Below are positions 1 through 62,045 of a stretch of 64,000 bases of DNA, in pieces. This DNA comes from Escherichia phage cardinal. Location of the stretch: the sequence record PQ567651.1, one strand, 5' to 3'. The translations under genes and the position numbers were made by a program. The notes under the pieces are model-generated. The model searched no databases. It was not told the origin of the DNA and saw nothing but the letters and a program-made list of their open reading frames with translations. Positions within the stretch are counted from its first letter, which is position 1, and each line of letters starts with the position of its first letter.

Positions 1-276
1 AGCACCTAATGCATTTTTAGACATACGATAAAATTTATTTACTGCTGCACTACGAGACATTTTAAAGAAGCTATCCCACATAGTTACAAGAGCATCAGTA
101 ACTGCTCGACGAATACCTAAAACAATTACACCACGTGCTTCACGATCTGCATAGTGTGCAAAGTTTTTATCATTACGAGGAGTTAAATTAGAGAAAATGA
201 GTTTTGTATTTTGGTTGTACATCTGCTTGTGACCAGGTTTATACCAATCAGTAGCAAAAGGTGCAAAAATATTCAT
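1..276 (-). CDS. NAMPT-family protein (NadV/Namat-like), N-terminal ~92 aa; gene continues past window start
   Basis: Minus-strand translation from ATG at ~276 gives MNIFAPFATDWYKPGHKQMY..., matching the NAMPT N-terminal TD(S/W)YK..H motif; RBS AAGGAGA upstream. Confidence 0.7.
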   Translation of the reverse strand, partial: MNIFAPFATDWYKPGHKQMYNQNTKLIFSNLTPRNDKNFAHYADREARGVIVLGIRRAVTDALVTMWDSFFKMSRSAAVNKFYRMSKNALGA

Positions 277-308
277 AGTTATGTCTCCTTGTTTGTTAGT
301 GTGGGAGT

Positions 309-337
309 ATCTTACTAAGCATACTCCCTATTGTCAA
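309..337 (-). promoter_or_regulatory. sigma70-like promoter (TTGACA-17-TAAGAT) overlapping hairpin gggagtat/atactccc
   Basis: Minus strand reads TTGACAATAGGGAGTATGCTTAGTAAGATACTCCC followed by AAGGAGA and ATG. Confidence 0.5.
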
Positions 338-347
338 CACTTATTAT

Positions 348-1241
348 TTAAAAATTCCACACGTATGGAGATACAATTTGTTGTTGCAAATCTGACTGAT
401 TCTTAACAAGAACACCGGAATCTTCTTGGATGTTATCTTCCCACACATTAAGAGAATGAATGCAGTCAAAGTGCTCACTTAACTCTTTAAGACCTTTAGA
501 AAAGATACCGTGTGTAACATATAACTCAATCTTACCTGCGTTACGAGCACGTAGCACTTTAGCCAATTCAATAAAAGTTCTACCGCCGTCACAGATATCA
601 TCTACGATCATCAGGTTACGCTTATTGAAATCCTGTACAGAAATGTCTGTACGAACAATAGCACCTGTTGCAGTATCTCTAACCTTCTCTGCACAGAACA
701 CATCTAAAGACATTTTCTTAGATAATTTAAATATTTTCTTAAGAGCACCACCATCAGGACTAACAAGAGCAAAATTCTCCATACGTAACTTCCACTTTAA
801 AGTTTCATAAGCAATCTCTTCTTGAGGTATTACACAGAGTCTGTCAAACACCGCTGGAGTAACATCACTATGTGGATCAGCAACGATAACACGTGAGAAA
901 TTTAATGAATTAATTATAGAAGCAAATGCTTTAACTCCGAATGCTTCACCAGGCTCACACACTCTGTCTTGTCGTGCATACGGTACATACAACATGAGCA
1001 AATCAACACAATATGGTTTATGATATAGCATATTGTCCAATGCATTCTTAGTCATAACCAAAGTCATCAAGTCTTTAGCAGATCTTACTTCTAAAGAGAG
1101 TAAGATTCTGTCTGTAGCATGATTGAAACCTGATAGATTCGTGTCTAGTTGAACATGTTGTTCTCCACCAGAGAATGTAAAGACTTTAACGTCTACATCA
1201 GTAACATAACAGTCAACACCATGTAGAATACTAACTTTCAT
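348..1241 (-). CDS. ribose-phosphate pyrophosphokinase (PRPP synthetase)-like protein; possibly Adps-like
   Basis: 297 aa; PRTase motif MIVDDICDGGRTF, SPDGG and THGIFS motifs typical of Prs. Confidence 0.75.
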   Translation of the reverse strand: MKVSILHGVDCYVTDVDVKVFTFSGGEQHVQLDTNLSGFNHATDRILLSLEVRSAKDLMTLVMTKNALDNMLYHKPYCVDLLMLYVPYARQDRVCEPGEAFGVKAFASIINSLNFSRVIVADPHSDVTPAVFDRLCVIPQEEIAYETLKWKLRMENFALVSPDGGALKKIFKLSKKMSLDVFCAEKVRDTATGAIVRTDISVQDFNKRNLMIVDDICDGGRTFIELAKVLRARNAGKIELYVTHGIFSKGLKELSEHFDCIHSLNVWEDNIQEDSGVLVKNQSDLQQQIVSPYVWNF

Positions 1242-1662
1242 TGTTTATCTCCTTAGTTGAGTTAGGACTTTATGTTCTCTACTCTACATACAGATAGATC
1301 TAAAGTCAATAGATATTTATTATTTAATTTATTATTTAATTAATAATAAAATTAATAAAGAATCTATTGTTAGTATAGAGTATGTATGTTAGTATTATAG
1401 ACATAACATAGTGCTATATGTAGACTACTCAGTTGTCTGTTAGATCATGTATCACAAGATTAGATAACACCCCCTCGCTGCGCTCGGCGTTTTTCGGGGG
1501 TTAGGGTAGCATACTTTTTTGCGTTTGTCAACACCTTTTTGGATTATTTTTAAGTACAACCTAAACCTCCTAAAAACGATTGTAACGAGTTTTACTGTGA
1601 GGTAAGGTGATTGCATATCTTAAAGGCTATTAGCTCGTTACAGAGCCGTACAGGAGGGAATA

Positions 1663-2031
1663 ATGAGGGTCACACGCTACGTTAGAAGTGAAACAATAGA
1701 TGGAAGCATAATGTATGCTTTCTACGATGATAAAACTTTTTGTTCTGCGTTCTATGAAGAAGACTTATCTACGGAATGGCAACAAATCATCTTCTTACTT
1801 GACATTTTGAAAAGAAGAGATAACTTTGAAGGTATTGAGTGGACAGTGGGAAGCAAAGTTATCATTCCAGGCTTAAGCAAACATGAGTTGCTTGACTTAG
1901 ATTGCAAACTTTGTAATTATCAATTCTCAAAACGTTTACCATTAGAAAGACAGTTAGGAGTTGAGATTCATGTTGACTTGGGCGATGGAGTATCCTATAC
2001 TCTCAACAAGCATAGTGCTGACGTTAATTAG
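1663..2031 (+). CDS. hypothetical protein
   Basis: track ORF, RBS AGGAGGG upstream; no recognisable motif. Confidence 0.55.
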   Translation: MRVTRYVRSETIDGSIMYAFYDDKTFCSAFYEEDLSTEWQQIIFLLDILKRRDNFEGIEWTVGSKVIIPGLSKHELLDLDCKLCNYQFSKRLPLERQLGVEIHVDLGDGVSYTLNKHSADVN

Positions 2032-2097
2032 TGGGATCACAAAGTGCGTCACGAGCATTTGCGATTGTTTAACACATTTTAAACAAAGGAAAAATAA

Positions 2098-2295
2098 ATG
2101 AATCAAACTATACAAACAAGCTATAGAGTAATTCTTGGTGAGTTCCATGTTGTTAAGTCAACATTGAATTATGAAGAAGCTAAAGAGAATTTCTTGCTTT
2201 GGGTTGAAGCATTCTCTGAAGTTGAAAAGGTAAGTTACAATTGTGTAACTTTGACTGCTGATCACGTACCTGTTTTGGAGTTTATTAAAAAATGA
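2098..2295 (+). CDS. hypothetical protein
   Basis: track ORF colinear with neighbours. Confidence 0.5.
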   Translation: MNQTIQTSYRVILGEFHVVKSTLNYEEAKENFLLWVEAFSEVEKVSYNCVTLTADHVPVLEFIKK

Positions 2296-2531
2296 AAAAA
2301 GAAATTTTAACTGATGTAACATATTCTTGTATTAGCAAAGGTGGTTTATATCGTGTAGTTGGCTTTCCTAAACCAGCGGGTGTATCTAAAGTATTTGATC
2401 CTGTTGTGATCTACGAAGATGTAAGGACTGGTCAACAGTATTGGCGATTCCAGCAAGATTTCTTACACCGTATGGAGGTTGTTGATGGCGAAAACACCGA
2501 AGAAGCGATCCGTAACAAAGCACGCATCTAA
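2292..2531 (+). CDS. hypothetical protein
   Basis: track ORF, start overlaps previous stop (ATGA). Confidence 0.5.
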   Translation: MKKEILTDVTYSCISKGGLYRVVGFPKPAGVSKVFDPVVIYEDVRTGQQYWRFQQDFLHRMEVVDGENTEEAIRNKARI

Positions 2532-2820
2532 AGATGGGGCGGCAAAGGCCGCTCCTAAGAAACAAAAATTTGACACAGAGGCTTTTGTCTTTGATACTCC
2601 AATAGAAAAGATAGAAGAAGCTCTTGCTAAATTTGAAGAACGTGAAGCAGATCCTATGGCAGATCCTTTCACAGAAGATGAATTGTATTGGTTTGGCTGG
2701 TGGGTTTTGAATCTACCAGAAGCTAAAAAACGAGGAATGAAATCAGTTCCTATTTGTGCAAAAGAGTCGGCTGTGTTAGGTTTATACGAGAAGCCTAAAA
2801 GAAGGAGCAAAAAGAAATGA
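2485..2820 (+). CDS. hypothetical lysine-rich protein
   Basis: ATG at 2485 preceded by GGAGG; track ORF 2479 uses TTG; basic N- and C-termini. Confidence 0.5.
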   Translation: MAKTPKKRSVTKHASKDGAAKAAPKKQKFDTEAFVFDTPIEKIEEALAKFEEREADPMADPFTEDELYWFGWWVLNLPEAKKRGMKSVPICAKESAVLGLYEKPKRRSKKK

Positions 2821-3095
2821 GAAAAACCTACCTGAAGTGTTTGTCTGTTGTGCAAAATGAATGGTATTCAGGTTTGCTGACAGCAGGTAAGAAATATGAA
2901 GTGCTCAATAAACCAGGGGCAAGGTTTTCATTAATTAAGAACGATGAAGGCACTGAAATGCTTATTTCAGTTGCAGATTCTGTGTATGGTACTTTTGAGT
3001 TTGTCTATGAACATGCACCAATTATTCTTGAATACAGCGGTACAAACAAACCTTACACAGCTTTAGATGTGATCAACAACAAAAGGAATAAATAA
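2817..3095 (+). CDS. hypothetical protein
   Basis: track ORF, colinear. Confidence 0.5.
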   Translation: MRKTYLKCLSVVQNEWYSGLLTAGKKYEVLNKPGARFSLIKNDEGTEMLISVADSVYGTFEFVYEHAPIILEYSGTNKPYTALDVINNKRNK

Positions 3096-3788: not shown

Positions 3789-4148
3789 ATGTGCGCTACT
3801 AATCAACATGATATTTGTTACCAACCTCTTACTTGGATTGGTGAGGATCACTATGCTCAACGTGTTATAGTCTGCGCTGCGAATAAGTATATTCTCAATA
3901 ATGGCGAAGAGTTAATTATTCCTTGTGTTAGGCATGCAAATCCTGTACTATCTGCACAACTTAATGTTTTAAAAGATGCAGGATTGATTGATAAACTGTT
4001 TTGCTTACCTGATAATCAAGGGTTTATTGATCAGTATTATAACTGGTGGAGTCGCAAAGATGCTTATATCATTGCAGATAACGCCAAACAAATTAACTAC
4101 GAAAGAAATGGTCACAACAGTGAACTATTCAGCGAGGGATTATACTAA
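3789..4148 (+). CDS. hypothetical protein
   Basis: track ORF; ATG at 3789. Confidence 0.5.
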   Translation: MCATNQHDICYQPLTWIGEDHYAQRVIVCAANKYILNNGEELIIPCVRHANPVLSAQLNVLKDAGLIDKLFCLPDNQGFIDQYYNWWSRKDAYIIADNAKQINYERNGHNSELFSEGLY

Positions 4149-4699
4149 TGTTTATTACAAGTGATTTGCATTTTATGCACAAACGTATCCGAGAGTTTGC
4201 TCCTGAATATCGCCCGTGGGAAGATATGGAGCATATGACAGAAGCACTGATCGAAGCATGGAATAAATGTGCCACAACACCAGGAGTAAAGATGTACCAT
4301 CTTGGGGACTTCTGTTTCGGGACTGAAGAAGATACCCGTAAGATTGCTTCCCGTCTCCAAGGGGATATTACTTACTGTGTTGGGAACCATGATTATAGTA
4401 AACACAGAAAAGTGCTTGCAGAGTATGGAGAAGTTGTGTATTATGACGAAGTGAAATATCAGAAGCTGTTCTTCGTCTTAAGCCATTACCCTATGGCTGC
4501 CTGGAATAAACAAGGGCATGGATCAATCATGCTACACGGACACTCTCACGGATCATTCCCTGATCATTTGTATGGGAAAATGTTGGATGTTGGTTGGGAT
4601 GCACACGGGAAAATCTTGCATTTTGACGAAATCATCTCTATTATGGATAAGCGTGATATTGTTGTTGTAGACCATCATAAGATAATCAAAGGAGATTAA
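4148..4699 (+). CDS. calcineurin-type metallophosphoesterase
   Basis: MPP motifs SDLHF, GDFCFG, GNHD, HGHSHG in order. Confidence 0.7.
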   Translation: MFITSDLHFMHKRIREFAPEYRPWEDMEHMTEALIEAWNKCATTPGVKMYHLGDFCFGTEEDTRKIASRLQGDITYCVGNHDYSKHRKVLAEYGEVVYYDEVKYQKLFFVLSHYPMAAWNKQGHGSIMLHGHSHGSFPDHLYGKMLDVGWDAHGKILHFDEIISIMDKRDIVVVDHHKIIKGD

Positions 4700-4700
4700 G

Positions 4701-5633
4701 GTGGCTAAGTTCAATTGTGATGACCTGATTGCAAAAGGTTTAGTGCATAAAAAAGAAGTTAAATCTGGAGAGTATGCTGGTCTTGCTGTGCTTAAATACA
4801 AAAACAATGTATTCTGGGATAATTTGTGGAACGTTGACAAACGACTTTTAGATTGTCGTGGGTTGGTTGTTGACTCAGAAGATAATGTTGTTATTTGGCC
4901 TTTTACTAAAATCTTTAATCGTTTTGAAAATGGTACAGATCTTCCAGCAGACGAAATTGTAGATGCTGTCCGTAAAGTAAACGGTTTTATGGCATCTGTA
5001 GGTGTGTACAAAGGGAAACTTGTTGTATCAACAACAGGGAGCCTAGAATCAGATTTCGCAATTATGGCAAAGAACCGTATTGTTTCCGAGTGTGACGACA
5101 TAGAGTATTTCATTAAGTGGACAGAGAGTGCAAAAGCAACTTTTCTTTTTGAAATCTGTGATCCTTCTGATCCACATATTGTCGAAGAAGAACCAGGCGC
5201 ATACTTAATTGGAGCAAGAATTCAAAATCTTGATGGAACAAGTTTCATGTTACCTGAAGGTGTTCTTGATGGGATTGCATCTATTACAAAGTTTAAACGT
5301 CCTGAAGTTTATCCGATGATTAAATTTTCAGATGTTGTTGAAATGTCTAAACATTGTAAACACGAAGGGTTTGTTGTTCGTGAAACAAACTATCCGTTTA
5401 ACTTACTCTTAAAGATTAAGTCACCATACTATCTTGCTAAGAAGTTCCTTATGCGTGGTGGCAATAAGAAGTGGGATATGATTTGGGACAACCCAAACAA
5501 TGCTAAACAAATTGTTGACGAAGAATATTATACTTTGTTAGAATGGCTTCGAAATAACTTTACGAAGGTTCAATGGGCTGCTCTAGATCCACAAGAGCGA
5601 CGTAAAGAAATAGAAAACTTCTTTGGAGGCTAA
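4701..5633 (+). CDS. RNA ligase, T4 Rnl1-like
   Basis: GTG start after AGGAGA; DCRGLVVD...FTKIFNRFENG and KVNG (motif I KxNG) and KIKSPYY resemble recalled T4 Rnl1 segments. Confidence 0.6.
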   Translation: MAKFNCDDLIAKGLVHKKEVKSGEYAGLAVLKYKNNVFWDNLWNVDKRLLDCRGLVVDSEDNVVIWPFTKIFNRFENGTDLPADEIVDAVRKVNGFMASVGVYKGKLVVSTTGSLESDFAIMAKNRIVSECDDIEYFIKWTESAKATFLFEICDPSDPHIVEEEPGAYLIGARIQNLDGTSFMLPEGVLDGIASITKFKRPEVYPMIKFSDVVEMSKHCKHEGFVVRETNYPFNLLLKIKSPYYLAKKFLMRGGNKKWDMIWDNPNNAKQIVDEEYYTLLEWLRNNFTKVQWAALDPQERRKEIENFFGG

Positions 5634-6038
5634 ATGAAACAACTTATCATTTTACGTGGTGTTTCAGGCGCAGGTAAATCTACAGTAGCAGAAATTATTT
5701 CTGAAGGTTATTGGCCTATCTGTGAGGCAGATCAATATCATTACACAGAAAACGGTGTTTACGATTGGAAGCCAGAAAATGTAGGTAAAGCACACTCATG
5801 GTGTCAGAGTATTGTTCGTGATGCTATGGCATCTAATATTAAAAAGATTATTGTCTCTAACACTTCAACCACAGAGAAAGAACTTAAACCTTATTTTACT
5901 ATTGCTGAAGAGTTTGGTTATCAAGTTATCTCTTTAGTTGTTGAAAATAGGCACGGTAACGACTCAATTCATGAGGTTCCACAACATATTCGTGATCAGC
6001 AAGAGAAACGTCTTCGCAGTTCACTTAAGCTACAATAA
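5634..6038 (+). CDS. polynucleotide kinase-like P-loop kinase (T4 Pnk kinase domain-like, no HAD phosphatase domain)
   Basis: N-terminus MKQLIILRGVSGAGKSTVA (Walker A) closely resembles T4 Pnk MKKIILTIGCPGSGKSTWA. Confidence 0.6.
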   Translation: MKQLIILRGVSGAGKSTVAEIISEGYWPICEADQYHYTENGVYDWKPENVGKAHSWCQSIVRDAMASNIKKIIVSNTSTTEKELKPYFTIAEEFGYQVISLVVENRHGNDSIHEVPQHIRDQQEKRLRSSLKLQ

Positions 6039-21308: not shown

Positions 21309-22213
21309 AATACTTAGTAACAGGTGGTTTAGGCTTTATTGGAAGTGCGGTAGTTCGTTTCCTGGCTAAAAACACTAAGAATGATATTTACGTTATAGAT
21401 AAATGGAGTTACGCTTCAGACCCTAGAAATTTATCAGAAACACCTAATGTAAAGTTTTGTCGTGTTGACTTGACAAATGCTCAGTTAACTGCTAAGATTG
21501 TGGCAGATGTTAATCCAGATTATATAATGCATCTTGCAGCAGAAAGTCACGTAGATAACTCAATAGCATCACCGAGTGTTTTTATAAATTCAAATATTGT
21601 TGGAACATTTAATCTTCTAGAAGCTGTTCGTTTAATGGGAGATAAATCAAATCTTAAAATGTTTCATCATATTTCAACAGACTATGTTTTTGATGGGCAT
21701 GTTGCTGGCACAGAAGATAGTAAAACAAACCCCTTGAACACCTACGGTTACAGTAAACAATTAGGTGAAACTTTAGTACAAACAGTTTGTCCTACAGCAC
21801 TTATTATCAGAACAGCTTCTGTTTATAGTGAATTTGGACATAACTTTTTGAAAACTATGTTGGAACGCTACAACGGTGGTCAAAAAGAATTTAATGTAGT
21901 ATGTGATCATTTATCATGTCCTACTTATGCACCTGATCTTGCAGAAACAATTTTTAAACTTGTAAAAGATGGTGTAAATAGTAAAATTGTACACTATGCA
22001 GGTGCAGATTATATTTCTTGGTATGATTTTGCACGAAAGATATTTCTTGTTATAGATTTATCTGTTACAGTTAATCCTGTATCTGCTTCAACCTATAATT
22101 CCAAAGCAGTCAGACCAGCAACATCTTATTTAAGAACAGATCCTACTTTAAATCCGCGAAGTGTTGATAGCGGTATTGTAAGAGCTTTAACTATACTTTT
22201 AAACAAGGAGTGA
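21305..22213 (+). CDS. NAD(P)-dependent epimerase/reductase, RmlD (dTDP-4-dehydrorhamnose reductase)-like
   Basis: Rossmann VTGGLGFIGS and STDYVFDG motif characteristic of RmlD-type reductases. Confidence 0.5.
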   Translation: MKYLVTGGLGFIGSAVVRFLAKNTKNDIYVIDKWSYASDPRNLSETPNVKFCRVDLTNAQLTAKIVADVNPDYIMHLAAESHVDNSIASPSVFINSNIVGTFNLLEAVRLMGDKSNLKMFHHISTDYVFDGHVAGTEDSKTNPLNTYGYSKQLGETLVQTVCPTALIIRTASVYSEFGHNFLKTMLERYNGGQKEFNVVCDHLSCPTYAPDLAETIFKLVKDGVNSKIVHYAGADYISWYDFARKIFLVIDLSVTVNPVSASTYNSKAVRPATSYLRTDPTLNPRSVDSGIVRALTILLNKE

Positions 22214-33062: not shown

Positions 33063-33617
33063 ATGGGTTTTGATGATATGTTATTATATGAGGAGGCTTG
33101 TGTGAAAGAAGCTATGGCTTTACCAGTTTTATCTATTGATATTACAACAGTAGACACTTTTTCAGATTGTGAAACGTGTGGATCGTATTCAAGTATTGTA
33201 CATGTGGTCTGTGGGGATTTAGGCACTTACGAAGATGGAGATTATGCAAGTTGTTTAGGTGATAATCAAGATGGTGAAGTGGCAAATGTTGCAAACTGGA
33301 TTGCTTCTAAGTTAAAAGAAAGAAATCGTCCGTTCCCTAATCTTCTTACACCAGAAGCTATGCTTAAAGCTGAACAAGAGATGTATGATTATGGTTATAA
33401 AGTAGATTATGACTATAATGATCCTAATTATAAAAAATTGAGTGACAAGTATTGGGAACTAGCTAACGCTTATGATAAATACTACTCTACAGAAAACATT
33501 GTTAAATTGTTTTTAGATTTTGGAGTAGAAATTAATTGGGATTTCGAAGAGGAAGAGCGTTACGACGCATCTTCTTGGGATGATGATTACGAAGAGGATA
33601 TTGAATGCGAAGAGTAA
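33063..33617 (+). CDS. hypothetical acidic protein
   Basis: ATG after GGAGG within track ORF 33048..33617. Confidence 0.5.
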   Translation: MGFDDMLLYEEACVKEAMALPVLSIDITTVDTFSDCETCGSYSSIVHVVCGDLGTYEDGDYASCLGDNQDGEVANVANWIASKLKERNRPFPNLLTPEAMLKAEQEMYDYGYKVDYDYNDPNYKKLSDKYWELANAYDKYYSTENIVKLFLDFGVEINWDFEEEERYDASSWDDDYEEDIECEE

Positions 33618-34417
33618 TTTTTGTTAGTGGCGCAGGACTATCTGTGGATAGCGGTATCCCAGCTTTTAGAACAGATACTTCTTCAGGGGAGGCGTTATGG
33701 TCTTCTTATGATCTTTCTGAGGTTTGTGACATTTTCAACTTCCGTGACGGTTATCAGCAAGAACAAGGTGTTCTTGATGCTATGGGTGGTTTAGATGCGG
33801 AAGGATATAACCTCTACCGTAAAACTCACGACTTTTACAATAAACGTCGCGTGGAATTAGAGAAAGTTGACCCGAATCCAGCACATCTTCAGATTGGAGA
33901 ATGGTTCAAAAAATATGGCCCAGAACGAATTATTAACATTACTACTAACGTGGATGACCTCCTTGAACGAGCAGGAGTAGATAGGGAAGAAGTGCTACAT
34001 GTGCACGGTTTTCTTCCTGAAATTACTTTTCAAAGAAAAGCCGGACAACCTACAATTGTAAAAGATGTTGGTTATCAAGCCATAGATGTAGATGACTACC
34101 ATTATGTAAAACCTAATGTAATTTTCTTTGGGGAAGCTGCTCCACTTTACACGGATATGTATTATATTTTTGATACACTGACGGCTCAAGATTTGGTTGT
34201 AGTAGTAGGATGTTCAAACCAAGTTATCAATTTTAATTGGGAATTATTCCCTGCACTTAATATGGGTACAAAAATGATCGTTGTTAACCCAGGAATTAAT
34301 TACGAAGAAACTCTTCTTTACGAAGATAGAGGAGTCTTTGTTTATCGAGAAAAGGCCGCAGATGCTTTTAGCAATCCTGCTTTCATAAAAATGATAGAAG
34401 ATCATTTGACTAAATAA
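33605..34417 (+). CDS. Sir2-family (sirtuin-like) NAD-dependent protein
   Basis: VSGAGLSVDSGIPAFR, TTNVDDL, HG, PNVIFFGE, VVGCS match sirtuin motifs. Confidence 0.7.
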   Translation: MRRVIFVSGAGLSVDSGIPAFRTDTSSGEALWSSYDLSEVCDIFNFRDGYQQEQGVLDAMGGLDAEGYNLYRKTHDFYNKRRVELEKVDPNPAHLQIGEWFKKYGPERIINITTNVDDLLERAGVDREEVLHVHGFLPEITFQRKAGQPTIVKDVGYQAIDVDDYHYVKPNVIFFGEAAPLYTDMYYIFDTLTAQDLVVVVGCSNQVINFNWELFPALNMGTKMIVVNPGINYEETLLYEDRGVFVYREKAADAFSNPAFIKMIEDHLTK

Positions 34418-49136: not shown

Positions 49137-49196
49137 GCGGGAAACCACTTCCCGCCTTACGTGATACATCTTAGTATAAGGGCGATCCGGTGTCAA
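49137..49196 (-). promoter_or_regulatory. promoter + stem-loop cassette (PeSL-like)
   Basis: minus: TTGACA-17-TAAGAT-GTATCAC..GGCGGGAAGTGGTTTCCCGC. Confidence 0.55.
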
Positions 49197-51550: not shown

Positions 51551-51597
51551 GTAGTTCTCCTTTGTTGTGTGTATCTTATAACGTGCTTTCTATGTTG

Positions 51598-51999
51598 TCA
51601 ATCTTTTATCTCGGTGCATTTTGCCAGGGTATACGTTGCAAGTGCTGACACTAGTTTTTCATTGCTACGATCTGCGGCTGTACTGTGTACTTTTTGAATA
51701 CTTTTTAACCACGGCGTAAAATTTTGAGTAGTCAGCACACTGGTAATAATTTCACATGGCACATCTTCATTTAAGCCGTTAACAATAGATTTATCTATTT
51801 TTGCCGTTAGTTGTGTAACAGCACCATAAGCGATCATGTGTGAATCCTCCATGATTTCATCGGGGATCGCATTATTAATAAGCATGACGTTTTCCATTGC
51901 ATCAACGGCGCTTAATTCTGCTACTGTGGAGGATATCGCCGCGCTAGATGTTCCAACCATGCCAAAAGAGATTAAACCAGCGATCAATAATTTTTTCAT
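51598..51999 (-). CDS. secreted protein with signal peptide
   Basis: MKKLLIAGLISFGMVGTSSAA signal-peptide-like. Confidence 0.5.
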   Translation of the reverse strand: MKKLLIAGLISFGMVGTSSAAISSTVAELSAVDAMENVMLINNAIPDEIMEDSHMIAYGAVTQLTAKIDKSIVNGLNEDVPCEIITSVLTTQNFTPWLKSIQKVHSTAADRSNEKLVSALATYTLAKCTEIKD

Positions 52000-59082: not shown

Positions 59083-59538
59083 TCACGATCCCACATTCCC
59101 ATTTTTGATACCATAAATAGAATCATAAGGGCTTGCCTCTACGAACTCCTTATCTGCGTAAGCGATAAGTTTATTTTTGAGATCTTCATTTTGTGTGTAT
59201 TTAAGATACAAACCACGTTTGACAATCTTCTCCCGTAAAGAAGTCCAGGTATCTTCATCATAATCTTTAACTAATCTGCCTAGACGTTTATAATATGCTT
59301 GTTCTTTTTCTCCTGTATATCTTAGATCTCCGGTTAAAATAGAAGATGCAATATTGTAATCATAAAACAAACATGCTTTTCTCCACATCATATATTGTTC
59401 CACACAAGTAAATTCGACAGAACTTGTGATAGAATTATTATACTTGGGAGCTAAAGGTTCAATAAAAGATGATAGATACCAGTTGCTAAATTCATCTTTT
59501 GCCGAGAAAAAGAACACATACTTGTCAGTAATCCGCAT
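59083..59538 (-). CDS. NADAR (YbiA-like, DUF1768) domain protein; C-terminus apparently frameshifted
   Basis: FTCVEQYMMWRKACLF, RLGRLVKDYDEDTW, EFVEASPYDSIYGI match NADAR; conserved C-terminal WKGQNLLG lies in +1 frame. Confidence 0.6.
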   Translation of the reverse strand: MRITDKYVFFFSAKDEFSNWYLSSFIEPLAPKYNNSITSSVEFTCVEQYMMWRKACLFYDYNIASSILTGDLRYTGEKEQAYYKRLGRLVKDYDEDTWTSLREKIVKRGLYLKYTQNEDLKNKLIAYADKEFVEASPYDSIYGIKNGNVGS

Positions 59539-60936
59539 TTACACCTCCTTATTGTATACTAATTTGCCACCATATTGTGTAACAATTTTTTGAAGATTTT
59601 CCAAATCAGAAACACTTACTGTTTCTGTATGACCATCTTTCAACTCTCTTGCCGTTAAAATACCAGTTTTTAATTTTTTCTTTATAGCTCTTTCAGCAGC
59701 CTTACATTGTTTCACTGTGCTAAAATCATATAAACAAATACGCTCCATAGGAAACATATTACAGCTATTTTGACGTTTTAATCGACTATCACTATTTTTA
59801 GCTATACCAAACTTAAGAGCAACTATAATATTATCATCCTTAACAATATTAATATATAACTGCTGCTGACTATGACCAGCACACATAGGACAACCTCGAC
59901 CGTGGCTTAATAAGGCATTAGCCCTCCCTGTCTGTTCCCCATGCACAAGACAAAGATATTTAAACTTACCGTGACTTCTAGACGGTTTACCGATCCAACC
60001 TACCCAGACATACCCTTTCCCTTCTACTTCCTTTTTTACCCTGTAGGTAATCTGATTTTCTGTATAGTGATAACTAGTTGCACAGCGGCAAGGGATACTT
60101 CCTTGTTTTAGGGGCCACCCTTTAGAGTAAAATTTACCATCGCAAACACCTGCTTGAACATATTCATCATGGGAGCAAACAGGACACTCAACCATCCATA
60201 CTGCATCACGCTTGTTACGTTTCCCTGTATTGGTGAAGATAGTGCCTTCCTTAAATTTCCCTGTAGAAAAGAAATCTGCAATATGTTGATCGTCGGACAT
60301 TGTTAGTGCCTTCCTTGTATTCTCATACCTACATAAAGGACAACCATAACCACGTTTAAAATTGTTAATACTTGTAGTATCCCATTTATAACCACAGTGA
60401 CACAACAAATCAAGTTTTGTTTTATGTCCTTTCCATTTTCCAACGTACCCTAACACCTGATACCCCTTCTTCTGTGCTATCTCTTCCAAGATCGGTAATT
60501 CTGTTTCCCATGCTAACGGTTTATTACTTGCACATGCCGGACAACCACGTCCATTCCTAAAATCAATAATGTTTGTGGTGTTCCACTCTCCATGTTTAGG
60601 GCAAATTATGCGAATTTTTGTTCGCACACCTCGCCACTCCTCGGCAAGACCTATAAAAGTAAACCCTCTTTCTTTAGCAATATCAACAAGGGAGATACAT
60701 TCCTTTTCTTCTGTTACTTTTCTATGACCATTGCAATCGGAGCAACATTTACCGCCTTTAGTTTTAAATACATTGATTATGGTACTTTCCCACTCTCCAT
60801 GATCAGAGCAAGATAGCTTAAGCCTAGTCCTGCTACCTTTCCATTCACCAACATAACCCAAGATTTGAATATTGTGATTTTTAGCAAGGGGTATTAATTC
60901 TTCTTTATATTGTTCCCATGATTTTAGTGCTACCAT
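59539..60936 (-). CDS. protein with five N-terminal Cys-rich (zinc-ribbon-like) repeats and C-terminal T5orf172/GIY-YIG-like domain
   Basis: repeats of LGYVGEWKG..TKL.L.C..HGEW.TT.IN.F..G.GCP.C; C-terminal LYINIV...FGIAKNSDSRLKRQ. Confidence 0.5.
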   Translation of the reverse strand: MVALKSWEQYKEELIPLAKNHNIQILGYVGEWKGSRTRLKLSCSDHGEWESTIINVFKTKGGKCCSDCNGHRKVTEEKECISLVDIAKERGFTFIGLAEEWRGVRTKIRIICPKHGEWNTTNIIDFRNGRGCPACASNKPLAWETELPILEEIAQKKGYQVLGYVGKWKGHKTKLDLLCHCGYKWDTTSINNFKRGYGCPLCRYENTRKALTMSDDQHIADFFSTGKFKEGTIFTNTGKRNKRDAVWMVECPVCSHDEYVQAGVCDGKFYSKGWPLKQGSIPCRCATSYHYTENQITYRVKKEVEGKGYVWVGWIGKPSRSHGKFKYLCLVHGEQTGRANALLSHGRGCPMCAGHSQQQLYINIVKDDNIIVALKFGIAKNSDSRLKRQNSCNMFPMERICLYDFSTVKQCKAAERAIKKKLKTGILTARELKDGHTETVSVSDLENLQKIVTQYGGKLVYNKEV

Positions 60937-61010: not shown

Positions 61011-62045
61011 TTAAAACACACTTGCCAAAGTTGCACCATTGGTGATAGTTGGTTCCAGAACAATACGGAAAGAATCTTCTGGATCATCACTAAACACAAC
61101 GATTTTACCGCCTGTAATAAGGTCTGCTTTCATTTTTGTCGCATTCAATGGAATTCGAGCATCTCCTTCATCATCAAAAACCACGTAAGAGCTATTAGCA
61201 AGGGCTTCTTTAGAGTCTGCATCACTTGGAGATGACAAGTACACGTCTAGTGTGCACGAACCACCTAAAAAGATTGCAGGTGTGAAGTTATGCCAACTAG
61301 ATACCCAGCTAACTTTCTGAAGTTTTCCATTAATAACAACGCTGCTGATATCCCATTTATTACCACCACCTAAAGAAACACCCATCATAGAGATGCATTC
61401 TTTAAAGGATAAATCAGGGTAGAAATTAAGTTCTTCTACTATACCTTGGATCACATCAAAGGACAACTCTAAACTTACATCCCAAAGTCTTTGGAAATTA
61501 TCAAAGTGTGCTTTGTTATCCAGGTTTTTATCTAAATAGTCAATCATAGTTTCTAGTGAGATTTTATCATAATTAAAATTATAAAACACACGACTAGGAC
61601 GATTTAAAAAGAATTCAGAGATAAAACCACTGTTTTTAGTCAGAATAAACAGTTTATTACCACTGCCAGTACCATCTAACAAAGTGAGAAGTGCTTCTTG
61701 ATCTTGTTTCTTCTCATACACTTTATCAAACTCGTCAAAAATAATCACTGCTTTGTCGGTGATCTTGCTAATAAGTTCAATGAAATTAGCATCGCTGTAG
61801 GCTTGAGTAACCATAATAGTTGGAATACCTTCTTCTACAAGGTCACGACTAATGAGTTTGGCTAACATAGTTTTACCACTGCCCTTAGTTCCTGTCAGGA
61901 GCAAACCTGTATTTTTACCTTGTGCACTCCGGCGATGGAATGTACGAATAACGTGATTTGCTCGTTTTTCTGTTTCACCATACAGAACATCCGGTACACC
62001 TGTTAGATTACCACGGCTTAAAAAAATAATTGCCAAGGGGATCAC
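61011..62045 (-). CDS. AAA+/P-loop ATPase; N-terminus may extend to ATG near 62140 through a frameshift at an A7/T7 run
   Basis: Walker A GTKGSGKTML, Walker B VIIFDEFD; GTG start lacks RBS while upstream ATG has AAGGGG RBS in +1 frame. Confidence 0.6.
   Translation of the reverse strand: MIPLAIIFLSRGNLTGVPDVLYGETEKRANHVIRTFHRRSAQGKNTGLLLTGTKGSGKTMLAKLISRDLVEEGIPTIMVTQAYSDANFIELISKITDKAVIIFDEFDKVYEKKQDQEALLTLLDGTGSGNKLFILTKNSGFISEFFLNRPSRVFYNFNYDKISLETMIDYLDKNLDNKAHFDNFQRLWDVSLELSFDVIQGIVEELNFYPDLSFKECISMMGVSLGGGNKWDISSVVINGKLQKVSWVSSWHNFTPAIFLGGSCTLDVYLSSPSDADSKEALANSSYVVFDDEGDARIPLNATKMKADLITGGKIVVFSDDPEDSFRIVLEPTITNGATLASVF

What the first reader, a model, noticed from the sequence alone, without database searches (positions are those of the whole stretch)
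1..1241. Adjacent PRPP-synthetase-like and NAMPT-family genes: candidate phage NAD+ salvage or reconstitution pair
A Prs-like gene (PRTase motif VDDICDGGRTF) sits directly upstream of a NAMPT-family gene (TDWYKPGH motif) on the minus strand, with a promoter between them. Phage Prs-like plus NAMPT-like pairs have been linked to NAD+ synthesis from nicotinamide or ADP-ribose, which would counter NAD+-depleting host immunity. The window also carries Sir2, NADAR and DUF2829-like genes, so NAD+/ADP-ribose warfare is a recurring theme.
Basis: partly seen in the sequence, partly recalled or inferred. Interest (0 to 1): 0.7.

Follow-up and report, generated by a model that had tools for sequence, protein, structure and literature searches.

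The report
Known phage NAD+ rebuilding gene pair
The two neighbouring genes are the already described phage pathway NARP1 (Adps plus Namat), which rebuilds NAD+ from ADP-ribose and nicotinamide after bacterial defences destroy it. The same proteins from this phage group are already listed in the paper that discovered the pathway, so the finding is correct but ordinary.

Summary
The window comes from a phi92-like E. coli myophage (Justusliebigvirus), 99% identical to phages AV123 and EmilieFrey/Bas61. On the minus strand, a 297-aa PRPP-synthetase-like gene (348..1241) lies 71 nt upstream of a Nampt-family gene that starts at 276 and runs off the window.

Sequence tests place both genes in the Adps/Namat type rather than canonical Prs/NadV.
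- The first protein scores 278 bits on an Adps profile and 67 bits on a Prs profile.
- It fails every NCBIfam Prs equivalog cut-off, as the validated Adps controls do.
- It has the Bas63-type donor loop DDICDGGRTF.
- The full-length second protein, read from 99%-identical relatives, has the Namat adenine-clamp signature GSYTYQFNTRD.
- Its best solved-structure matches (9w5x/9w5w) carry the SPbetaL1 Namat residue numbering: 398 bits, against 167 bits for mammalian Nampt.

The supplementary tables of Osterman et al. (2024) already list the phi92, EmilieFrey and PaulScherrer proteins as an Adps homologue with Namat nearby and as an "Adps-associated" Namat. The window's Adps differs from the phi92 entry by one residue.

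I found no biochemical or genetic test of this lineage. One clamp loop deviates slightly from the published pattern.

The parts
348..1241 (-). adps: ADP-ribose pyrophosphokinase homologue with a PRPS-like fold, 297 aa, stop TAA at 350..348
   Evidence: ORF and sequence. PHROG 619 E 5e-91. Adps-HMM 278 bits against Prs-HMM 67 bits. Donor (PP) loop DDICDGGRTFIE is identical to the Felixounavirus/Bas63-type Adps. One residue different from phi92 FR775895_00103 in Osterman Table S1.
1..276 (-). namat: first 92 codons of the nicotinamide ADP-ribose transferase gene (Nampt family), cut by the window edge. The full gene is 577 codons in EmilieFrey.
   Evidence: Translation. PHROG 448 E 4.5e-17. The 92 aa are identical to the phi92 and EmilieFrey proteins. 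Full-length orthologue at L001:2543-4276(-).
309..337 (-). sigma-70-like promoter motif TTGACA-17-TAAGAT in the adps-namat spacer
   Evidence: 10 of 12 positions. The motif class is enriched in the window, 21 against 1.6 expected. Identical in EmilieFrey and AV123. Function not shown.
303..328 (-). inverted repeat GGGAGTAT...ATACTCCC overlapping the spacer and -10 element of that promoter
   Evidence: Read directly from the sequence. The RNA fold is -15.9 kcal/mol with z = -1.72 against shuffles, which is not significant.
1281..1309 (-). sigma-70-like promoter motif TTGACT-17-TAGAGT upstream of adps
   Evidence: 9 of 12 positions. It lies in the 420-nt AT-rich divergent intergenic region 1242..1662.

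Best explanation
The two genes are the basic two-gene NARP1 pathway (NAD+ reconstitution pathway 1) of a phi92-like coliphage.

Inferred mechanism, taken from characterised homologues:
1. Host defences such as SIR2-HerA, Thoeris, DSR1/2 or SEFIR cleave NAD+ into ADP-ribose and nicotinamide.
2. The PRPS-like enzyme Adps (348..1241) transfers the beta-gamma pyrophosphate of ATP to the distal ribose of ADP-ribose. This gives ADPR-pyrophosphate plus AMP.
3. The Nampt-like enzyme Namat (gene start at 276) joins ADPR-PP to nicotinamide. This regenerates NAD+ directly, without NMN and without host NadR/PncC.

Both genes carry host-type promoter motifs, which fits early expression.

Shown here: gene presence, family placement, conservation of catalytic and specificity residues, and prior cataloguing of the same proteins. 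Inferred: the enzyme activities, and the counter-defence role in this phage.
For: Adps side:
- 36-39% identity to ICP1 Adps, whose activity and structure are published in PMC13586617 (tblastn E 2e-41).
- 34-36% identity to the Felixounavirus Adps, the Bas63 type that was validated by deletion and metabolomics.
- Only about 24-26% identity to E. coli Prs.
- An HMM of 15 phage Adps-clade sequences, built without the query, gives 278 bits. A Prs HMM gives 67 bits.
- All NCBIfam Prs equivalog and subfamily models are far below cut-off, for example 99.6 against 297 bits. The ICP1 and Felixounavirus Adps behave the same way, while E. coli Prs passes at 532.6 bits.
- The catalytic and acceptor residues R90, H124, D163, K186, D214, D215 and D218 are kept.
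- The donor loop is DDICDGGRTF with the Phe cap. Prs has DDMIDTGGTL at this position.

Namat side:
- The window fragment keeps D10 and Y12, which correspond to D13' and Y15' of the nicotinamide site.
- The full-length orthologue keeps F191, R194, D217, H246, R330 and D332.
- The best PDB hits are 9w5x/9w5w, which carry the SPbetaL1 Namat residue numbering (398 bits). Mammalian Nampt scores 167 bits. 9ke8, at 338 bits, lacks the aromatic residues (GAQTYQRNTRD).

Literature: Osterman et al. Table S1 lists phi92, EmilieFrey and PaulScherrer with 'Namat within 10 genes = Yes'. Table S2 lists their Namat as 'Adps-associated' rather than 'Nmnat-associated'.
Against: - I found no biochemical or genetic test of the phi92-group proteins in the searched literature.
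- The variable clamp loop (SCL) deviates from the published pattern. Its third residue is Lys, as in the Bas63 type, but the fourth is Asn rather than an aromatic residue. The loop is also about 6 residues longer than in SPbetaL1.
- F92 of ICP1 Adps, an adenine contact, is Cys here. That position varies across Adps homologues.
- Namat enzymes keep PRPP-to-NMN activity in vitro, so some canonical activity cannot be excluded.
- My NJ tree resolves the inner branching of the Adps clade poorly, with bootstraps of 0.07-0.26.
- Most of the Namat gene lies outside the window and was read from relatives.
Confidence: 0.85

Rival explanations
1. A canonical salvage pair. A true PRPP synthetase makes PRPP from ribose-5-phosphate, and a NadV/Nampt enzyme makes NMN from PRPP and nicotinamide. 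NAD+ is then completed by host NadR/PncC or an unseen phage NMN adenylyltransferase, as in NARP2.
For: GenBank records annotate the genes this way. Pfam, TIGR01251 (118.8 bits, just above the 113-bit cut-off) and NF006629 (461.8 bits against a 405-bit cut-off) match the PRPS and Nampt superfamilies. Namat enzymes keep PRPP-dependent NMN synthesis in vitro.
Against: - The protein fails all specific Prs models, whereas E. coli Prs passes.
- Its PP loop is the Adps type, not the ribose-5-phosphate-binding DTGGT type.
- The conserved C-terminal Prs motif LAEAIRRISNEES is absent.
- The Namat adenine-clamp signature is present.
- The discovery paper classes the phi92 Namat as Adps-associated rather than Nmnat-associated.
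- In Bas63, the same gene type worked in a pncC nadR deletion host.
Confidence: 0.07
2. The chemistry is NARP1, but the main role is metabolic housekeeping rather than counter-defence. The pair would keep NAD+ high for phage metabolism, or recycle ADP-ribose released by the phage's own NAD+-consuming Sir2-family enzyme.
For: The same window encodes a Sir2-family protein and a NADAR protein. It also encodes NAD(P)-dependent dTDP-sugar enzymes. AntiDefenseFinder reports many NARP1 homologues in non-mobile bacterial DNA, which suggests housekeeping roles.
Against: In Bas63 and other phages, NARP1 products appear only when a defence system depletes NAD+, and deletion sensitises the phage to those systems. 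Nothing links the phage Sir2 to the pair physically, as it lies 32 kb away.
Confidence: 0.06
3. The pair is decaying or inactive in this lineage.
For: Only the slight deviation of the clamp loop and the Cys at the ICP1 F92 position.
Against: Both ORFs are intact. All catalytic residues are kept. The locus is conserved at 98-99% identity in 54 of 56 matching phage records.
Confidence: 0.02

Closest known systems
NARP1 of Escherichia phage JohannRWettstein (Bas63) and other Felixounavirus phages (Osterman et al. 2024)
   Same: Same gene order, adps then namat. The donor loop DDICDGGRTFIE is identical. Both have the long Namat form (577 aa here, 593 aa in the Felixounavirus representative adrianh, the only one read here) with insertions after the DSGDP strand, the same SCH signature, and Lys at the third position of the SCL loop.
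   Different: Identity is only 34-36% for Adps and 44% for Namat. The spacer is 71 nt with its own promoter-like motif, against 46 nt. The fourth SCL residue is Asn instead of Trp. The main insertion is shorter, about 55 aa against about 95 aa.
Vibrio phage ICP1 Adps (structures and kinetics, PMC13586617)
   Same: 36-39% identity. F18, R87, H121, D161, K185, D212, D213, I214, C215, D216 and F221 are all conserved, as F23, R90, H124, D163, K186, D214-D218 and F223. Both lack the C-terminal sequence motif of the Prs filament module.
   Different: The PP loop reads GGRT here instead of GAAS. F92 is Cys and F223 is Glu, as in the Bas63 type. The window protein has a C-terminal tail that extends about 15 residues beyond the end of ICP1 Adps in the alignment (297 against 280 aa).
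Bacillus phage SPbetaL1 Namat (PMC12774641). PDB 9w5x/9w5w appear to be its structures, judged from the matching residue numbering D13, Y15 and R40; the PDB table labels them only 'Nicotinamide phosphoribosyltransferase'.
   Same: Best solved-structure match at 398 bits. The catalytic core and the SCH motif are conserved: GSFTYQYNTRD there, GSYTYQFNTRD here.
   Different: SPbetaL1 uses Arg40 of a short SCL loop to stack on adenine. Here the loop is longer and has Lys at that position. Two insertions (about residues 255-283 and 343-399) are absent from SPbetaL1.
Canonical ribose-phosphate pyrophosphokinase (Prs, EC 2.7.6.1)
   Same: Same two-domain PRPS fold family. Shared residues include F, R, H and D, the DD motif and the flexible-loop lysine region.
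   Different: About 24-26% identity. The protein is below every specific Prs model cut-off. Its PP loop differs, and the C-terminal regulatory and filament motif is missing.
Nampt/NadV of NARP2 phages and cells
   Same: Same fold and the same catalytic His, Arg and Asp core.
   Different: Nampt lacks aromatic residues at SCH positions 3 and 7. Mouse Nampt reads GSGGALLQKLTRD in the same alignment, and 9ke8 reads GAQTYQRNTRD. NARP2 Nampt genes are Nmnat-associated, whereas this one is Adps-associated.
Extended NARP1-AP (Adps, Macro-domain phosphatase Adpp, Namat; bioRxiv 10.64898/2026.01.28.702374)
   Same: Same two core enzymes.
   Different: No Macro-domain gene sits in or next to the operon. 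The divergent upstream ORF has no Pfam hit, and the downstream ORFs in EmilieFrey are 37-88 aa. This version is therefore predicted to be blocked by aRES, which produces ADPR-1''-phosphate.

Membership tests
Adps (NARP1 step 1) | PRPS-like catalytic core with conserved acceptor and catalytic residues (ICP1 R87, H121, D161, K185, D212, D213, D216) | tested here: met
   The aligned residues are R90, H124, D163, K186, D214, D215 and D218. Feature list taken from PMC13586617.
Adps (NARP1 step 1) | Remodelled PP loop / ATP-donor site conserved among Adps homologues and different from Prs | tested here: met
   The loop DDICDGGRTF(IE) is identical to the Felixounavirus Adps and close to ICP1's DDICDGAASF. 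Phe is present at the ICP1 F221 position in all 16 Adps-clade sequences (the window protein plus 15 homologues) and is Leu in all 11 Prs sequences. Prs reads DDMIDTGGTL.
Adps (NARP1 step 1) | Belongs to the phage Adps clade rather than to cellular Prs | tested here: met
   Adps-HMM 278 bits against Prs-HMM 67 bits. PHROG 619 gives 305.7 bits. NCBIfam Prs equivalogs are all far below cut-off, as for the ICP1 and Felixounavirus controls. The nearest neighbours by distance are Gram-negative phage Adps proteins. Caveat: my Prs set was Gammaproteobacteria only, and the inner tree nodes are weakly supported.
Adps (NARP1 step 1) | Namat gene in the immediate vicinity (97% of the clade) | tested here: met
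   The Nampt-family gene starts 71 nt downstream on the same strand. Osterman Table S1 gives 'Yes' for phi92.
Adps (NARP1 step 1) | Loss of the C-terminal alpha11-alpha12 filament/regulatory module of Prs | tested here: inconclusive
   The conserved Prs motif LAEAIRRISNEES is absent, and only about 16 unrelated residues follow the last strand. No structure was predicted, so absence of the helices is inferred from sequence only.
Adps (NARP1 step 1) | Converts ADPR + ATP to ADPR-PP + AMP | not testable with these tools
   Needs enzyme assays.
Namat (NARP1 step 2) | Nampt-like catalytic core (SPbetaL1 D13', Y15', F189, R192, D215, catalytic His, R306, D308) | tested here: met
   D10 and Y12 lie inside the window. 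F191, R194, D217, H246, R330 and D332 are present in the EmilieFrey orthologue, whose first 92 aa are identical to the window's.
Namat (NARP1 step 2) | [quoted passage not shown] | tested here: met
   GSYTYQFNTRD at residues 460-470 of the full-length orthologue: Y462, F466, Phi = T, Q, N. This part of the gene lies outside the window and was read from 99%-identical phages.
Namat (NARP1 step 2) | SCL loop that supplies an adenine-stacking residue (third residue Arg; or third residue Lys/Tyr with the fourth residue stacking) | tested here: inconclusive
   The loop lies inside the window: TPR-NDKNFAHYADREARG. The third residue is K37, as in the Bas63 type. The fourth is N38, where Bas63-type has W and PJN02 has Y. 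F39 follows. The loop is about 6 residues longer than in SPbetaL1. A ligand-bound model would be needed.
Namat (NARP1 step 2) | Adps-associated genomic context | tested here: met
   Osterman Table S2 gives 'Adps-associated' for phi92, EmilieFrey and PaulScherrer.
Canonical Prs (ribose-phosphate diphosphokinase) | Reaches the curated score of a Prs equivalog/subfamily model and carries the ribose-5-phosphate-binding loop DxxDTGGT | tested here: not met
   NF002320 gives 99.6 bits against a 297-bit cut-off, NF002095 gives 98 against 296, and the others are lower. Only the broad TIGR01251 model just passes (118.8 against 113). The loop is DDICDGGRT.
NARP2 (Nampt + Nmnat) | Nampt-clade enzyme lacking the adenine clamp, with a phage NMN adenylyltransferase partner | tested here: not met
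   The clamp signature is present, and the gene is classed as Adps-associated rather than Nmnat-associated. I did not search the whole phage genome for an Nmnat gene myself.
NARP1-AP (with Adpp phosphatase) | Macro-domain ADPR-1''-phosphatase gene inside the NARP1 operon | tested here: not met
   No gene lies between adps and namat. The only flanking ORF scanned, the divergent upstream one, has no Pfam family. The ORFs downstream of namat in EmilieFrey were not scanned and are only 37-88 aa, too short for a Macro domain. Macro is not among the Pfam families listed for the window, although that list shows only 25 of 41.

The most novel reading that the evidence does not exclude
The phi92-type Namat has an atypical, longer selectivity-clamp loop (NDKNFAHYADREARG, with no aromatic residue at the fourth position). 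It also has two surface insertions and its own promoter-like site separate from adps. It might therefore differ from characterised Namat enzymes in donor preference or regulation. For example, it could make more use of PRPP or another ADPR derivative, or be expressed independently of Adps.
Probability: 0.08. Interest if true: 0.3.

Novelty: already known. Interest (0 to 1): 0.12.

Why it matters
NARP1 lets phages escape the many bacterial defences that work by destroying NAD+. Knowing that a phage carries it helps predict host range and helps in choosing therapeutic phages, and phi92-like phages are noted for broad host range.

For this window the value is mainly corrective. Public records still label these genes as PRPP synthetase and nicotinate/nicotinamide phosphoribosyltransferase, and NCBIfam NF006629 names Namat proteins 'nicotinate phosphoribosyltransferase' above its cut-off.

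The pair here is the basic two-gene version without the Adpp phosphatase. It is therefore predicted to fail against aRES-type defences. Nothing here opens a new question.

Tried and rejected
- The PDB sequence search with the Adps homologue found only canonical Prs chains. The ICP1 Adps structures are not in the held copy, so residue comparison was done by alignment to the ICP1 gene fetched from GenBank.
- A first Biopython NJ bootstrap timed out. A lighter NJ run worked, but it gave weak inner-node support and some saturated distances, so I rely on the profile scores instead.
- The genome-contig scan for Prs returned only Gammaproteobacteria at 80% identity or more, so the Prs outgroup is narrow.
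- The inter-gene hairpin is not more stable than shuffled sequence (z = -1.72), so it was dropped as a feature of note.
- Rfam found nothing in the window.
- The search for the claimed DUF2829 gene gave one regex-picked candidate without Pfam support.
- NADAR could not be located by regex or by tblastn with E. coli YbiA. It was then found by Pfam.
- The literature search for experiments on Bas60/Bas61 NARP1 found none.
- I deliberately did not run the large homologue searches, structure prediction or fold search. The identity of the system was already settled by cheaper evidence.

Full report
**What is there**

The window matches phi92-like E. coli myophages of the genus Justusliebigvirus (subfamily Stephanstirmvirinae). 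Bases 1-3000 are 99.3% identical to phage AV123 and 99.2% to EmilieFrey (BASEL phage Bas61). 54 of 56 matching phage records cover the stretch at 95-99% identity.

On the minus strand, an ORF of 297 codons runs from 1241 to 348. A 71-nt spacer follows. A second gene then starts at ATG 276..274 and runs off the window after 92 codons. Both have AAGGAG ribosome-binding sites.

The first protein matches PHROG 619 'ribose-phosphate pyrophosphokinase' (E 5e-91) and Pfam Pribosyltran/Pribosyl_synth. The fragment matches PHROG 448 'nicotinamide phosphoribosyl transferase' (E 4.5e-17).

**The rest of the second gene**

In EmilieFrey the orthologous gene is 577 codons (L001:2543-4276, minus strand). 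Its first 92 residues are identical to the window's. A few small ORFs and a tRNA cluster lie downstream.

**Canonical Prs/NadV or Adps/Namat?**

This was the open question in the finding. Two structural papers give sequence rules.

For Adps (Vibrio phage ICP1; PMC13586617), ADP-ribose sits on the conserved PRPS acceptor surface (R87, H121, D161, D212, D213, D216). K185 is essential. The PP loop and neighbouring hairpin are remodelled into an ATP-donor site capped by Phe221. The C-terminal alpha11-alpha12 module and the allosteric sites of Prs are lost.

I aligned 27 sequences: the window protein, 15 phage Adps-clade proteins (ICP1, a Felixounavirus representative of the Bas63 type, and others taken from the discovery paper's Table S1) and 11 gammaproteobacterial Prs.
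- The window protein keeps R90, H124, D163, K186, D214, D215 and D218.
- Its loop DDICDGGRTFIE is identical to the Felixounavirus one. Prs reads DDMIDTGGTLCK.
- The Phe cap is present in every Adps-clade sequence and is Leu in every Prs.
- A profile of the Adps set built without the query scores it at 278 bits. The Prs profile gives 67 bits.
- Against NCBIfam, it only just passes the broad TIGR01251 model (118.8 against 113 bits). It falls far below every specific Prs model (for example 99.6 against 297). The ICP1 and Felixounavirus Adps controls behave the same way, while E. coli Prs passes at 532.6 bits.
- The conserved Prs C-terminal motif LAEAIRRISNEES is absent. A short unrelated tail remains, and I did not model it.

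For Namat (Bacillus phage SPbetaL1; PMC12774641), the catalytic core is shared with Nampt. Specificity for ADPR-PP comes from a clamp made of two elements. [quoted passage not shown] The other is a variable loop (SCL) that supplies a further stacking residue.
- The full-length phi92-group protein reads GSYTYQFNTRD at 460-470, a complete match.
- It keeps F191, R194, D217, H246, R330 and D332.
- Its best solved-structure matches are 9w5x/9w5w, which carry the SPbetaL1 residue numbering D13, Y15 and R40 (398 bits).
- Mammalian Nampt scores 167 bits and reads GSGGALLQKLTRD at that site.
- An intermediate hit, 9ke8 (338 bits), reads GAQTYQRNTRD and so lacks both aromatic residues.
- The SCL loop lies inside the window (TPR-NDKNFAHYADREARG). 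Its third residue is Lys, as in the Bas63 type. The fourth is Asn rather than Trp or Tyr, and the loop is longer than in SPbetaL1. This is the only feature that does not fit neatly, and I mark it inconclusive.

**Already catalogued**

The supplementary tables of Osterman et al. (bioRxiv 10.1101/2024.02.11.579819, the NARP1 discovery paper) already list the gene products of phi92, EmilieFrey and PaulScherrer.
- Table S2 gives FR775895_00104 as 'Adps-associated'. The alternative class is 'Nmnat-associated', meaning NARP2.
- The window's Adps differs from the listed phi92 sequence at one residue (D10G). The 92-aa Namat fragment is identical.

**How it most likely works**

By homology, Adps pyrophosphorylates ADP-ribose using ATP. 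Namat then joins ADPR-PP to nicotinamide to give NAD+. This restores the pool that SIR2-HerA, Thoeris, DSR1/2, SEFIR and similar defences destroy, and it does not depend on host NadR/PncC.

The gene identities and residue conservation are shown here. The activities and the counter-defence phenotype in this phage are inferred. I found no paper that tests Bas60/Bas61 or phi92 for this.

There is no Macro-domain phosphatase (Adpp) in or beside the operon. This is therefore the basic two-gene version. It is expected to be ineffective against aRES, which converts NAD+ to ADPR-1''-phosphate.

**Regulation**

The spacer holds TTGACA-17-TAAGAT (337..309), and a weaker TTGACT-17-TAGAGT lies upstream of adps (1309..1281). 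Locally the number of such sites is no more than chance. Across the window, TTGACA-N17-TANNNT occurs 21 times against 1.6 expected, mostly on the coding strand of the early-looking gene blocks. A host-type promoter in front of each gene is therefore plausible but unproven. An inverted repeat overlapping the spacer promoter is not more stable than shuffled sequence.

**Context claims**

A Sir2-family ORF (33605..34417 +) and a NADAR ORF (59083..59538 -) are confirmed. A DUF2829-like gene is not.

**Verdict**

It describes a known system in a phage group where it has already been catalogued. Novelty: already known. Interest is low. The small residual novelty lies in the atypical clamp loop and the possibly separate promoter for namat.

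Noticed in passing
window 33605..34417 (+): A Sir2-family ORF of 270 aa (PF02146, E 3.7e-20) is encoded by the phage itself. It overlaps the end of a 184-aa ORF of unknown function (33063..33617; PHROG 9509, unknown function). Why a phage that rebuilds NAD+ also carries a potential NAD+-consuming enzyme is unexplained.
   Followed up: partly
window 59083..59538 (-): A NADAR-domain ORF of 151 aa (PF08719, E 9.2e-30). It lies directly downstream of a 465-aa endonuclease-like ORF (59539..60936; PHROG 681/559, HNH) and a 285-aa ATPase-like ORF (61011..61868; PHROG 2376). From my own knowledge, NADAR enzymes remove ADP-ribose from guanine bases, so this could counter DarT-type toxins. I did not test that.
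   Followed up: partly
This 193-aa ORF has an N-terminus that looks like one (TWIEAKEAMLKGKRVKHKYFCEGEWFEM). It has no Pfam hit at E <= 0.01 and matches only PHROGs of unknown function (11295, 22208, 3474).
   Followed up: partly
whole window, e.g. 49168..49196, 51573..51601, 21470..21498: Host-type promoter motifs TTGACA-N17-TANNNT occur 21 times against 1.6 expected from shuffles. Several have the same TAAGAT -10 element as the one in front of namat. They are concentrated in the small-ORF blocks at 39-55 kb on the minus strand.
   Followed up: partly
window 1242..1662: A 420-nt AT-rich non-coding gap lies between the divergently transcribed adps and the plus-strand gene block. It contains short TATTTAT/ATTTATTATTTA tandem repeats (1314..1341) and a G+C-rich terminator-like hairpin with a T-run on the plus strand (1476..1489). 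The hairpin sits upstream of, not after, the plus-strand genes. There is no Rfam match.
   Followed up: partly
L001:2543-4276 (EmilieFrey Namat; outside the window): The phi92-type Namat is 577 aa, against 491 aa for the PDB chain 9w5x that matches SPbetaL1 numbering. It has two insertions (about residues 255-283 and 343-399) that are shared in position with the Felixounavirus protein but differ in length and sequence. A similar insertion sequence appears in the Shigella phage Ag3 entry of Osterman Table S1. Their role is unknown.
   Followed up: partly
window 4148..6038 (+): A calcineurin-like phosphoesterase (4148..4699; Metallophos_2, weak at E 3.3e-4) is followed by genes annotated in EmilieFrey as RNA ligase and polynucleotide kinase. 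This looks like an RNA-repair module about 3 kb from the NARP1 pair. From my own knowledge, such modules counter tRNA-cleaving defences in T4.
   Followed up: no
database records: Annotation pitfalls. GenBank records call these genes Prs and nicotinate/nicotinamide phosphoribosyltransferase, or even 'nadR'. NCBIfam NF006629 names Namat proteins 'nicotinate phosphoribosyltransferase' above its cut-off. Separately, four records labelled 'Campylobacter phage' (e.g. MG065656) carry this E. coli-phage locus at about 98% identity, which suggests mislabelled hosts or contamination.
   Followed up: no
L002:4910-6229 (Vibrio phage ICP1 isolate 2018_Mat_001): The annotated ICP1 Namat CDS (439 aa, 'hypothetical protein') starts at a position equivalent to about residue 52 of the other Namat proteins. 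It therefore lacks the D/Y nicotinamide-site residues and the SCL loop. This is probably a mis-called start or a frameshift in that record.
   Followed up: no
literature: The AntiDefenseFinder paper reports the anti-TIR gene Atd1 in Justusliebigvirus phages. I did not look for it in this window.
   Followed up: no
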